From NCBI GenBank assembly GCA_030390025.1, contig CM059452.1, positions 7,998,001 through 8,062,000 of the forward strand: DNA of 64,000 bases. Reading direction: 5' to 3'. Origin of the DNA: Squalus acanthias. Lineage: Eukaryota. The notes below the pieces were generated by a model. That model was given only the letters and a program-made list of their open reading frames with translations, did not search any database and had not been told where the DNA came from. The translations under genes and the position numbers were made by a program. This document shows, piece after piece, positions 49,792-62,899 of this stretch (positions within the stretch are counted from its first letter, which is position 1; every line of letters starts with the position of its first letter).

Positions 49792-49842
49792 TATCTATCC
49801 TCGACTACTGGAGACAAGGCACCACCGTGACGGTGATTGCAG
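49792..49842 (+). pseudogene. IGHJ: Ig heavy-chain (IgM-type) JH segment lacking an RSS, WGQG->WRQG
   Basis: SILDYWRQGTTVTVIA|gtgaga; satellite directly abuts its 5' end. Confidence 0.82.
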
Positions 49843-52779
49843 GTGAGAACCATTCACTCTTTCAGTAACTGCTGTATTTGTGCCTTTATTTTATATTTCT
49901 GTTTATTTCAGCAATTCATTCATTCACTGAAACTTGTATTCGCTGGATTCTGTATTGAGATTTTTTGCAATGCTTCATTTGATTCTGCTGAAAAGGGTTC
50001 ATAGAATTGAACTGCTTCTTCAGAATAATATATTGTTGAGGGATTGAGCCCCTGATTGATGTGATTTGTTGTTTATCTGCTGATGAGATAGTGTGCCTGG
50101 GGTTACTTCAAATACCCAACGGTTGTTGAACTGTTTGGCTATTCTACAATGTTTAATCTCGGTGACGTCTAATGGTTGCAGGATTTCTGATCAAATGTAA
50201 ACATTTATGTGACTAAATGTGTTTGAAATAAGATTGTAGGCAGAAAATAGAAACTTTAGCGGTCAAAAATAATTTAAAGATATTTTGACGTATTTCTATT
50301 TGTGATATTTACATTGTCATTTATTAATCTAATGTCCACCAACGGTCATATTCAATACATGAAAAGTTAATGTAATTAATGACTAAATAATTAATAAATT
50401 TGTTGCCTGAATCAGTTTGAAATTAATATAAATTAAATTAATTTATTGTAGTAATATCACCCAATATTACAATAATATGCTATATCAATATTAATTTATT
50501 AAACATGATCCGTCTACTCACAATTCCGCTGTCATTATTTTATATTTATGTTTATTTCAATAATTAATTCGTTCAGTGATAGATGGGTTCGCTGGATTCT
50601 GTATTGAGATTTTTTTGCAATGTTACATTTGATTCTGCTGAAAGGGTTTATAGAATGAAGCTGCTTCTCCACAAAACGTTCTGTTGCGGGATTCAGCCCC
50701 TCAGTGATGTGATTTGCTGTTTATCTGCTGAGGAGAGTGTGTGCCTGGGTTACTTTGAATAACTAAAGTTTGTGAAATTGTTTGGCGTTTCTGCAATGTT
50801 TAATCTCGGTGACATCGAACTGTTGCAGGTTTTCTGATTTGTTTAAAACTGTCTGAAAGATGATTCTAGGCAGACAACAATAAGGTTTTATAAATCAGAA
50901 ATCGTTTAAAAATAATTTAATGCATCTTTCTATTTAAGTGAGAATTGCAGATTCAACTATTAATATATGGTTTACGGTGCTCACATTTAATAGGTAAATT
51001 GTACTGTAATTATGAATTATATAATAAAAAAAATTCAGGTTGAAGGAGAATGAAATCAATATAACTCAAACGATTATAATGCGGTAATATTGCCCAATAT
51101 CACTCAATATGCTGTAGGATTAATATTAATGTATTAAACATTATTCGCCTTCCACAATTCTGCTCTAAACTGGTCACAATTAACGTGAGCGGAAAATTTT
51201 AGAGGCTGGAGACAATTTCTGATTATGTCTGAAATTATTTTAATAACAGCAGACTGATTCCACCGCAGTGTTCAGGTTAATGAGGGGTTTGAAATTAATT
51301 GTTATCTCCCTGTTTCACACAGATGAATGACGGATTGTATTTAATTATGCATTAAATGCGAGTTGTAAATAGAAGTTTGTAAATGTAATAAATCTGCCGG
51401 GTTATTAAATTCTTACTGTGCAGCGGAAAGCATGTTATTCCTTCAATATTATTTGTTGTTTGATAGCGAGACAATTATCACTAAACTAATCTTAAACAGT
51501 TTGTAAGATCATGGGCTGAGCGGTCGCTGGCAGTCAAAGAATTGTTCATATGATTCTATTTAAATTCAAGGAAAGTGCAGACTGCGTAAGGCTGGCGACA
51601 CACATTGACATTCAAGCAGATTAATTTAATTACGAAAGGTTAATATTAGTTTTGAATTTAACAACAACATCCTGTCTCCTGTAACGGTGCTGTTTACGGG
51701 ATAGAATTATAGACAATGCACAGATTACATCAGAGAGTTATGTTTAATTCTCATTAATACCAAATTGATCAACAAAATCTCGCCTCCATTTGCTCATTAA
51801 ATTTCAGTGTCGCAGATGGTCTGATTGATTTGTTCTCGGGCAGTTTTACACTGATCATTCTGGACCTTATTTTCAATAAATAGCAGAATATATTTAATAA
51901 TTAATTTACGGGCATTGTGTGAATTACGGGAGTAAAGTATAAAAAGATTGCCTGTGTTATTAAATAGCGGAGGCTCTGTTACTGACTGCAAACTGGCCGG
52001 TTGTCTTTTAATTCATGAAAATAGTTTTTTCTAGTTAAGATTGAGGACAATGTTTCAACTCGAGAGCCCTGCTTTAGTAAACACACGGTGTTACAGTCCA
52101 TTGGTAGTTAGTGAGATGTGACCACGGCCAGACTTTGAACTATTTAAATAGTCCACTCCTAAATCCATCATGTGAAATCCACTCTGAGAAAAGATGGAGT
52201 TTCTGTTGTATCAGAGAGTTCAGAAACATGCATTGTTTACAAGTGTGTAGATAGAGAGCGGGAATGTATTAGAAGTTAGTGACCATTTTAACTTATTCAA
52301 ATGTGATTTGATTTAAGTAAAATTAATATATTTTTCTGAATGTCTTTATCTATTAATATGATTCTTAATATTTTAATATTGATAAGTGCCATGTTAATTT
52401 AATTGAAACCCTAATAGTTCACAGGTTACCAGGCAGAAACAGGTTTAAAATTAATTTTACTTAATTTTGTTATAATCCAGTGTAACATCAGATAACATCA
52501 ATATTAACTTAGAGTATAATATCAGTGTGAATTTATTAAACATAAATAAGCTCCCACAATTGCTTTGTATACTGAACAGGATTATAGTTGCTGTAAAATC
52601 TCAAGGGTTGGAGAGAATTTTAAATTTTGTCTAAAATTAATTTAAAAACAATACATGTCTTAATCAGCTGTGCTCAGCTCGAGAAGGTGTCGCCGCAGAT
52701 TTTAATGTGTTTTGCCTCAATGATTTTCCAGGTTATATTTAATTATGAAATTATATTAACCCAGTGGGTAACCGGTTTT

Positions 52780-62077: not shown

Positions 62078-62502
62078 CTAAACATCCGCGGGAACCGTCC
62101 GTGTCTGTCCTCCTGCCCCCGGCAGAAGAAGTCTCCGCTCAGAGGTTCGTCACCCTCACCTGCTTAGTGAGAGGTTTCTCCCCCCGAGAGATCTTCGTCA
62201 AGTGGACATTCAATGACAAGCCGGTGAATTCCGGCAACTACAAGAACACCGAGGTGATGGCGGAGAACGGCAGCAGTTCCTTCTTCATGTACAGCCTGTT
62301 ATCCATTGCAGCGGAGGAGTGGGCCAGCGGCGCTTCTTACTCCTGTGTGGTGGGACATGAAGCGAACCACTTGAAGATCATTAACAGAACGATTAATAAA
62401 TCCAGCGGTAAACCCAGTTTTGTGAACATTTCCCTTGTACTGATGGACACCGTCAATTCTTGTCAATTAGAATCTTTCGATTGCATTTCAGTTCTTGAAT
62501 AA
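62078..62502 (+). CDS. IGHM: IgM heavy-chain Cmu4 exon with secretory tailpiece (isolated, probably a relic)
   Basis: ctgcag acceptor; [80 protein letters not shown] splice donor g|gtaaac at 62407; AATAAA at 62498 and 62508. Confidence 0.9.
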
Positions 62503-62899
62503 AAACCAATAAAGGCCTTTTCTTCCAATCGTCAGTTACACACACAGCCGCTCGATTAATTTTGTTTCCCATTTTTGCCAAGGGGAGGGCTGTTTATCTG
62601 AAGCAGGATATTTGCCGGTCTCGGGCCCAAGGCTTGTACAGCCAGCGCTCCCAGCTCAGATACACCACGGGTTAGAGACAGACTGAAGCTCTTTCATGAC
62701 AGGATTTCTCAAAGTCACTTCAGCAACTTTCCTCCCGCAGGGGGAATGAAAAAGTTCCAATTTCAGACAAGCAAACGCAGCACATTTAGATCTCGGTGTC
62801 CCTGTTTCTCGTGTTGTCGATCTCTTCAGAATTGGGGTCGGTTTTATTTTGCAGCATCTCACCCTCTGGGATCTGAAATAAGGCCACACATGAACCCGA

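What the first reader, a model, noticed from the sequence alone, without database searches (positions are those of the whole stretch)
49792..62513. IgM cluster relic (JH + lone secretory Cmu4) directly after the NAR-TCR cassette
Seen: an IgM-type JH 3.2 kb after the supporting V-delta and an open Cmu4-secretory exon 12 kb later, on the same strand. I found no VH, DH or Cmu1-3. Established: shark TCR-delta can use IgH V segments, and Ig-derived sequence occurs at the locus. This relic is unusual in retaining the J-C side. Inference: it records physical Ig/TCR locus mixing, and the J-C intron could donate Ig cis-elements to neighbouring TCR genes.
Basis: partly seen in the sequence, partly recalled or inferred. 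Interest (0 to 1): 0.7.

Follow-up and report, generated by a model that had tools for sequence, protein, structure and literature searches.

The report
Headless IgM gene behind NAR-TCR cassette
This is a shark antibody (IgM) gene that has lost its variable part and three of its four constant exons and now sits directly behind a T-cell-receptor cassette, in five related copies, most likely as decaying debris of one old chromosome deletion, although the layout resembles the step proposed for the origin of shark single-domain antibodies.

Summary
In detail: JH (49799-49842) and Cmu4 (62078-62502) are present; VH, D and Cmu1-3 are absent. It is not 'lone secretory': an open TM exon lies 2.6 kb past the window end. 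It is no misjoin: the same satellite-JH junction occurs in five diverged copies, each behind a NAR-TCR/V-delta cassette; two copies carry Cmu1-4+TM, three share one 4,873-bp Cmu1-3 deletion, and three sister cassettes lack the relic entirely. The JH has lost its RSS plus 4 nt and is fused to the inverted 3' flank of an opposite-strand IgM cluster. The window lies inside a 4.3-Mb array interleaving at least 31 Cmu4 exons and 22 NAR-TCR V hits; such interleaving, and V-less IgM entries, are published (PMC12227049). Best reading: a non-rearrangeable, decaying pseudogene made by one germline deletion (RAG involvement about 45%) and then duplicated. The cis-element idea has no support. What remains notable is a NAR V-D-J placed in splice phase upstream of a VH-less Ig constant region, like the proposed origin of IgNAR; expression is untested. 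The scan noted the interleaving and germline-joined NAR-TCR elsewhere in this genome; my look-ups showed no note on this fusion.

The parts
42778..44093 (+). NAR-TCR cassette: leader 42778-42820, V 42968-43259 with RSS (22-nt spacer) at 43260, D 43650-43662 with 12-RSS on both sides, J 44046-44093 with 23-RSS and phase-1 donor; frames open
   Evidence: V has the a-b loop Cys and lacks the WYRK Trp, as described in PMC1845163
46286..46591 (+). Supporting V-delta exon (no leader, CDR1 Cys, intact acceptor); consensus 23-RSS at 46592; unrearranged read-through meets a stop in the heptamer
46592..47223 (+). Tandem array of 10.4 x 60-bp units that each begin with the RSS heptamer
47224..49314 (-). 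Collinear with the unfused NAR-TCR/IgM tail-to-tail unit; at least 47.7-49.3 kb is the inverted 3' flank (beyond TM) of an opposite-strand IgM cluster
49315..49791 (.). 67-bp satellite, 7 copies; native to IgM 3' flanks, 1.2-1.3 kb beyond the TM exon; holds the upstream breakpoint
49792..49798 (+). 7-nt junction insert; with the next CC it repeats the 9-mer at the start of the first satellite unit (exact in U1, U3, U5; one change in this copy): likely a templated insert
49799..49842 (+). IgM JH stub: RSS and first 4 coding nt missing, G>R in WGxG, donor intact
49843..62077 (+). IgM J-C intron, collinear with intact clusters except for the LINE insertion, smaller indels and the Cmu1-3 deletion
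52780..56763 (+). Broken LINE with about 10-bp target-site duplication (endonuclease- and RT-like frames; RTE-like label is from recall); body shared with U1, left junction with U4, absent from U3, U5 and the intact neighbour
61681..61681 (+). Junction of a clean 4,873-bp deletion that removed Cmu1-Cmu3 (1-nt microhomology); present in 3 of 40 scored hits (this copy, U1, U4)
62078..62502 (+). Cmu4 plus secretory tail; acceptor and internal TM donor intact; 6 replacement and 4 silent differences from the majority Cmu4, including stop loss at 62467-62469
62503..64000 (+). Cmu4-to-TM intron (poly(A) signals, then a 53-bp tandem array shared with other IgM clusters); it runs off the window to an open IgM TM1 exon at G000:C29:8064594-8064728, 2.6 kb beyond the window end

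Best explanation
This is an IgM cluster without VH, D, JH-RSS and Cmu1-3, fused behind a NAR-TCR cassette, and it is most likely a non-expressed, decaying pseudogene made by one old germline deletion and later duplicated. Steps. (1) Shown as an existing layout: NAR-TCR/V-delta lies tail-to-tail with an opposite-strand IgM cluster. (2) Junction shown, mechanism inferred: a break in the satellite 3' of that cluster's TM exon was joined to a break at the 5' end of a same-strand JH, with a templated insert and 2-nt microhomology (alternative end joining); the JH-side break may be a RAG cut (about 45%). (3) Shown by trees: the fused unit arose once and was duplicated to five copies on both strands. 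(4) Shown: one 4,873-bp deletion removed Cmu1-3 in three copies, crossover with an ordinary cluster supplied the 3' part of two copies, and three sister cassettes lack the relic altogether (read as secondary loss, inferred). (5) Inferred: with no RSS, V or upstream acceptor the JH cannot be rearranged or spliced into a chain, and V-delta to D-delta joining would detach the relic from the cassette, which can still work as an ordinary NAR-TCR.
For: Five full-length junction hits, the four others 95-96% identical to the window copy, among 40 scored, each 7-9 kb behind a NAR-TCR V. Unfused units collinear with window 42.7-49.4 kb and continuing into a minus-strand TM (C29:7490069-7499077; 6887176-6898735). 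The inverted flank of the five fused and three relic-less units forms one clade (100/100; 100/98) with unfused units outside; the five JHs form one clade (100/99). Shared deletion junction in U1, U2, U4. Each Cmu1-3-less copy has its own lesion: U1 1-nt loss right after the Cmu4 acceptor, U2 stop loss and IP>NH, U4 Y>D and T>P; together 15 replacement and 6 silent changes against 295:86 sites (omega about 0.7, p=0.33 against neutrality), versus 0.9 replacements per copy in 26 other copies, 15 of them with none. U3/U5 switch to 97.5-100% identity with an ordinary cluster from about 1.5 kb into the intron, so their intact C exons need no selection. Three sister cassettes join the satellite straight to the 3' flank and keep V-delta with RSS. 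Orphan TM exons show deletions are common here. Germline RAG joins are common around it: 8 of 30 JH loci examined are D-J or V-D-J joined, and NAR-TCR cassettes are VD- or VDJ-joined in U1, U3, U5.
Against: No RNA from this species could be examined, so silence is not shown. Counts for the selection test are small, the 26 comparison copies were picked by similarity to the window copy, and the window copy alone (6:4) does not exclude some constraint. Splice donors of all five JH stubs and all TM frames are intact, and the NAR J donor is in phase with Cmu4 (window) and Cmu1 (U5). U5 has an open NAR V, open V-delta and fully open Cmu1-4+TM with intact splice sites. Deletion versus inversion, and the order of steps 3-4, are not resolved because 3' ends are swapped between clusters. 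TCR-delta C was found only on another contig (C911), so deletion versus inversion at V-delta joining is unknown.
Confidence: 0.76

Rival explanations
1. The fused units are expressed as hybrid heavy chains: a rearranged (or germline-joined) NAR V-D-J is spliced past the unrearranged V-delta onto Cmu1-4 (U5) or Cmu4 (U2, U4), giving a single-domain NAR V on an IgM constant region; the Cmu1-less form would escape BiP retention without a light chain.
For: Phases match: J to Cmu4 in the window and J to Cmu1 in U5 translate in frame. U5 exons and splice sites are all intact and its Cmu4 equals the majority sequence. [quoted passage not shown]
Against: J donors and C acceptors of Ig-type genes are phase 1 as a rule, so phase match is expected by default (established Ig gene structure). 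An intact V-delta acceptor lies a few kb after the J (2.2 kb in the window), long before the C exons (15-18 kb), in all five units. U5's intact C region is explained by recent crossover. U1, U2, U4 Cmu4 carry lesions and U3's NAR V is frameshifted. Among the proteins fetched, none combines a NAR-TCR V or supporting V-delta with an IgM C domain.
Confidence: 0.07
2. The relic is kept as a cis-acting module (IgH intronic enhancer or AID-targeting element) or as a switch acceptor for neighbouring VDJs.
For: The first 3 kb of the J-C intron is retained in all five copies. Switching between shark Ig clusters is reported (PMC5192425 passage citing Zhu 2012), and TCR V genes at this locus hypermutate (PMC5931798 passages).
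Against: No octamer or Ets motif, E-boxes 6 versus 4.7 expected (mammalian motifs from recall, shark enhancers may differ). Complete clusters flank the window. Three sister cassettes lack the relic. PMC5931798 reports no support for hypermutation of NAR-TCR V. A switch to a Cmu4-only, lesioned region would give a defective chain.
Confidence: 0.1
3. The satellite-JH join is an assembly misjoin.
For: The junction lies at a 67-bp satellite; U3 and U5 are about 99.6% identical over the intron and could be one locus assembled twice. No reads of this individual were seen.
Against: The four other copies differ from the window copy by 4-5% around a near-identical junction, on both strands over 1.6 Mb; array lengths differ (2, 7, 11, 11 units in four copies measured); both sides form clades of the same copies; U1 is collinear with the window at 95.7% over 8.3 kb across the junction.
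Confidence: 0.02
4. Same pseudogene, but formed by inversion of JH-to-3'-flank inside one tail-to-tail NAR-TCR/IgM unit, followed by crossovers that removed the reciprocal junction.
For: The sister group of the relic JHs (100/99) includes the cluster at C29:9370790, which itself lies tail-to-tail with a NAR-TCR V.
Against: All five copies have ordinary 3' flanks with no inverted RSS-D-V behind TM; 22 of 22 hits for the JH-RSS flank lie beside a JH by position or by direct check; that cluster's flank is more distant from the relic's (76-85%) than another unit's (85-89%).
Confidence: 0.2

Closest known systems
Elasmobranch antigen-receptor complex (AgRC): IgM clusters interleaved with TCR alpha/delta V and NARTCR (Flajnik et al. 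2025, PMC12227049)
   Same: IgM miniclusters alternate with TCR V genes and NAR-TCR cassettes on both strands; Table S1 lists 'IgM (missing V)' twice, 'IgM pseudo?' three times and a 'NARTCRdV (part of above IgM?)' in great white.
   Different: The parts of the paper I read give gene-model lists without junctions; here a base-level fusion of a NAR-TCR cassette's flank to an RSS-less JH is resolved, in five copies with a graded series of later deletions.
Germline-joined shark Ig genes (VD-J, VD-DJ, VDJ; Lee et al. 2000, PMC2193156; reviewed in PMC5192425)
   Same: Inherited loss of the JH RSS with a few coding bases trimmed, in an array with many ordinary germline joins.
   Different: The partner is not a D or V coding end but a satellite without a recognisable RSS, so it would be an aberrant joint; a non-RAG break cannot be excluded.
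Proposed origin of IgNAR: NAR V-D-J recombined onto an IgW cluster that lost V-D-J and the first C exon (PMC4622739, PMC4279169, PMC12227049 passages)
   Same: A NAR V-D-J cassette stands upstream, in the same orientation and splice phase, of an IgH constant region that lost its own V and D and, in three copies, its first C exon.
   Different: The constant region is IgM, not IgW; the supporting V-delta exon, its RSS and a JH stub still lie between; no transcript is shown; IgNAR clusters have three D segments and five C domains.
IgM1gj of nurse shark (PMC5192425 passage; protein P0012)
   Same: An IgM cluster with internal C exon loss.
   Different: IgM1gj keeps a joined VDJ, lacks only Cmu2 and is expressed; this unit has no V and lacks Cmu1-3.

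Membership tests
Shark IgM cluster (origin of the relic) | Cmu4 with IgM secretory tail | tested here: met
   86% identity to Triakis IgM Cmu4+tail; C1-set Pfam hit; stop lost in this copy
Shark IgM cluster (origin of the relic) | JH, J-C intron and TM exon collinear with IgM clusters | tested here: met
Functional IgM gene | VH and D segments or a joined VDJ | tested here: not met
   tblastn; upstream DNA is an inverted 3' flank
Functional IgM gene | JH with 23-RSS | tested here: not met
Functional IgM gene | Cmu1-Cmu3 | tested here: not met
   deleted in the window copy, U1 and U4; present in U3 and U5
NAR-TCR cassette (upstream neighbour) | V with leader, a-b loop Cys, no Trp in WYRK; own D and J | tested here: met
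   criteria from PMC1845163; sequence
NAR-TCR cassette (upstream neighbour) | Leaderless supporting V-delta with CDR1 Cys and RSS | tested here: met
   homologous V-V-(J)-C-delta gene models in other sharks
NAR-TCR cassette (upstream neighbour) | Expressed as V-V-C-delta | not testable with these tools
   only contigs that look like other organisms were available
RAG germline coding joint | JH end within a few bases of the RSS cut site | tested here: met
   4 nt trimmed against unjoined JHs; but 21 nt from the D-side RSS if the ancestor was D-J joined like its sister clusters
RAG germline coding joint | Partner end next to a 12-RSS | tested here: not met
   no CAC heptamer with nonamer near the satellite break in the three unfused flanks that the scan could anchor
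RAG germline coding joint | P or N nucleotides | tested here: inconclusive
   the 7-nt insert matches nearby satellite sequence, so it looks templated
IgNAR-like heavy-chain-only antibody gene | NAR V-D-J upstream of an IgH C region without Cmu1/CH1, same strand and phase | tested here: met
IgNAR-like heavy-chain-only antibody gene | No intervening acceptor exon between J and C | tested here: not met
   supporting V-delta acceptor intact in all five units
IgNAR-like heavy-chain-only antibody gene | J-to-C spliced transcript and secreted chain | not testable with these tools
   no RNA of this species

The most novel reading that the evidence does not exclude
A NAR-TCR V-D-J cassette has been fused, possibly by an aberrant germ-line RAG cut, to a VH-less IgM constant region and is transcribed as a NAR-V/Cmu hybrid heavy chain (V-Cmu1-4 from U5, V-Cmu4 from the deleted copies): a living replay, with IgM, of the event proposed to have created IgNAR.
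Probability: 0.07. Interest if true: 0.85.

Novelty: new variant of a known kind. Interest (0 to 1): 0.42.

Why it matters
Even as a pseudogene, the unit shows at base level that interleaving of Ig clusters and NAR-TCR cassettes can, by one deletion, put a NAR V-D-J directly upstream of a V-less heavy-chain constant region and then strip the first C exons, the two steps hypothesised for the birth of IgNAR. It gives specific loci (C29:9556681-9531966 and the window) and diagnostic variants for an RNA test, and a candidate off-target germ-line RAG joint. Without expression it is one of many erosion products in an already described complex.

Tried and rejected
RNA test: no RNA holder on record was listed. 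Contigs of four coded runs were laid on window 42700-50400; their listed pieces differ by about 3-12% from the window, so they look like relatives, satellite matches swamped the tables, and no listed joint or piece bridged satellite and JH or left the NAR J donor; this says nothing for or against expression. Simple in-place inversion: no reciprocal junction behind any of the five TM exons; 22 JH-RSS flank hits gave no orphan RSS. Cryptic RSS at the satellite break: none in the three flanks scanned. Acceptor-like AG with a pyrimidine tract in the 500 nt before the JH: none printed. TCR-delta C placement on the same contig: only one hit, on C911. A Pfam scan of the LINE frame failed on stop codons and was not repeated; the LINE label rests on its frames and recall. 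One J-frame translation was off by one base and was redone; window coordinates printed in the block table are 2,000 too low and were corrected by hand. Papers not held: Deiss 2019, Ott 2021, Criscitiello 2006, Zhu 2012; they may describe V-less Ig pieces at this locus. Ten literature searches listed no paper whose title or shown abstract concerns a NAR-TCR cassette fused to an RSS-less JH or spliced to Cmu; most subscription papers are not searched. No structure or complex prediction was run: no binding claim is made.
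Full report
Observation. The window holds a NAR-TCR cassette (leader, V, D, J at 42778-44093) and its supporting V-delta (46286-46591), both open and with good RSSs; the V meets the NAR-TCR criteria quoted in PMC1845163 (passages). A JH follows at 49799-49842 and a Cmu4-secretory exon at 62078-62502, 86% identical to Triakis IgM. tblastn with three shark IgM chains finds no VH or Cmu1-3 between 46.7 and 62.07 kb. An open TM1 exon lies 2.6 kb past the window end. The JH has no RSS, reads WRQG, and Cmu4 has lost its stop (TGA>TTA) and changed the conserved IP to NH.

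Setting. The window is G000:C29:7998001-8062000. Of 40 scored Cmu4 hits (58 candidates), 31 lie on C29 between 5.97 and 10.27 Mb on both strands; 22 of 30 NAR-TCR V hits and 16 full-length supporting V-delta hits lie in the same interval, with ordinary TCR V genes between. Complete IgM clusters lie just before and after the window. TCR-delta C was found once, on contig C911. Flajnik et al. 2025 (PMC12227049; I read parts 1-2 of 8, keyword passages and part 1 of 2 of Table S1, not the PDF supplement) describe TCR V exons between IgH clusters and list NARTCR among IgM genes, two 'IgM (missing V)' and one NARTCR entry marked 'gj' in great white. The mixing is therefore known.

The 5' junction. 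Against unjoined JHs, the stub lacks the RSS and 4 coding bases; a 7-nt insert precedes it. Upstream lies the inverted 3' flank of an opposite-strand IgM cluster, ending in a 67-bp satellite that normally sits 1.2-1.3 kb beyond TM. The insert plus the shared CC repeats the start of the first satellite unit, which suggests templated alternative end joining (inference). Unfused units exist: NAR-TCR V 7490069, V-delta 7493746 and a minus-strand TM at 7499077 are collinear with window 42701-49380; a second is at 6887176-6898735.

Five copies. The junction occurs full length in 5 of 40 scored hits: U1 7903351+, U2 the window, U3 8446864+, U4 9067974-, U5 9548157-, each behind a NAR-TCR V and V-delta. 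Their JHs form one clade (100/99), sister (100/99) to two D-J-joined clusters (30 loci, one of them on a long branch of unsure place). Their inverted flanks form one clade with three more cassettes in which the satellite is joined straight to the IgM 3' flank, with no JH, C or TM; these keep V-delta and its RSS. This excludes a misjoin as the source of the junction, though U3 and U5 are close enough to need read support.

Constant region. U1, U2 and U4 share one clean 4,873-bp deletion of Cmu1-3 at window 61681. U3 and U5 carry Cmu1-4 and TM; U5 is open throughout with intact splice sites. But from about 1.5 kb into the intron U3/U5 are 97.5-100% identical to an ordinary cluster (7663938) while the first 0.7 kb carries characters private to all five, so their C region probably came by crossover and the order of events is not fixed. 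The three deleted copies each have their own Cmu4 lesions and 15 replacement to 6 silent changes (295:86 sites; p=0.33 against neutrality), against 24:16 over 26 other copies; small numbers and a comparison set chosen by similarity limit this test.

RAG or not. Germ-line joining is common here: of 30 JH loci, 17 have an RSS, 5 are D-J joined, 3 are V-D-J joined and 5 are these stubs; NAR-TCR cassettes are VD-joined in U3 and U5 and VDJ-joined in frame in U1. Lee et al. 2000 (PMC2193156, passages) argue that such joins are RAG products. A random break between VH and JH would fall within 10 nt of the cut site in about 1-2% of cases and within 25 nt in 2-6% (7 of 8 intervals, 409-1273 nt; one fully joined interval dropped), but this is post hoc. 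Against RAG: no RSS at the partner end, a templated insert, and sister clusters that are already D-J joined, which would put the break 21 nt from the nearest RSS. I put RAG involvement at about 45%.

Function. Without V, RSS or a nearby acceptor the JH cannot enter a chain. The default splice from the NAR J is to V-delta 2.2 kb away; after V-delta joins D-delta, everything 3' of its RSS is deleted or inverted away (inference from V(D)J geometry). The intron has no octamer or Ets motif and ordinary E-box counts (motifs from recall). Loss of the whole relic in three sister cassettes fits dispensability. The one open alternative is exon skipping from the NAR J to Cmu4 or Cmu1, which is in frame and recalls the hypothesis that IgNAR arose from a vNAR-D-J cluster joined to an IgW cluster lacking V-D-J and the first C exon (PMC4622739 and PMC4279169, passages). 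Phase match is the default for Ig exons, and no fetched protein shows such a hybrid. Public contigs looked like other organisms and could not test it. PMC5192425 (passages) and PMC5931798 (passages) supplied background on germline-joined clusters, inter-cluster switching and TCR hypermutation.

Verdict. Real feature, partly misdescribed; a V-less, RSS-less IgM pseudogene fused once to a NAR-TCR cassette, duplicated and eroding, in a known interleaved locus. New variant of a known kind. Interest 0.42; 0.85 if hybrid transcripts are found (probability 0.07).

Noticed in passing
G000:C29:7896268 (L082), 8596889 (L150), 8200431 (L152), 9032610 (L100): NAR-TCR exons joined V-D-J in the germ line; three share one junction (shown in frame for the first), a fourth has a different in-frame junction; three stand behind a second, unjoined NAR-TCR V. 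An earlier scan note covers the first type.
   Followed up: partly
G000:C29:8438865 and 9556681: NAR-TCR cassettes with V joined to D, leaving a single VD-to-J step; the first has a 1-nt frameshift in V.
   Followed up: partly
window 46592-47223: The supporting V-delta RSS is the first unit of a 60-bp tandem array; one later unit (46835) is a second consensus 23-RSS, and array length varies between cassettes.
   Followed up: no
G000:C29:7499077, 6824149, 6898735, 6902769: IgM TM exons without an adjacent Cmu4 in the stretches held: further deletion relics of IgM clusters.
   Followed up: no
G000:C29:7952114-7970293 and 8138079-8115981: Both neighbouring IgM clusters have V apparently joined to D with one 12-RSS left facing JH; the second has a stop in Cmu1 and a divergent VH.
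   Followed up: partly
G000:C29:8875746, 8213667, 8589377: Three cassettes where an inverted IgM 3' flank is joined directly to a forward IgM 3' flank, forming an imperfect inverted repeat of about 1.5 kb.
   Followed up: partly
G000:C29:7698770 and 9343129: NAR-TCR V with no supporting V-delta hit, tail-to-tail with an IgM cluster; the second V is broken.
   Followed up: no
G000:C911:119-5002 and 582982: The contig with TCR-delta C also begins with IgM Cmu1 and Cmu4 exons and carries short TCR V hits between them.
   Followed up: no
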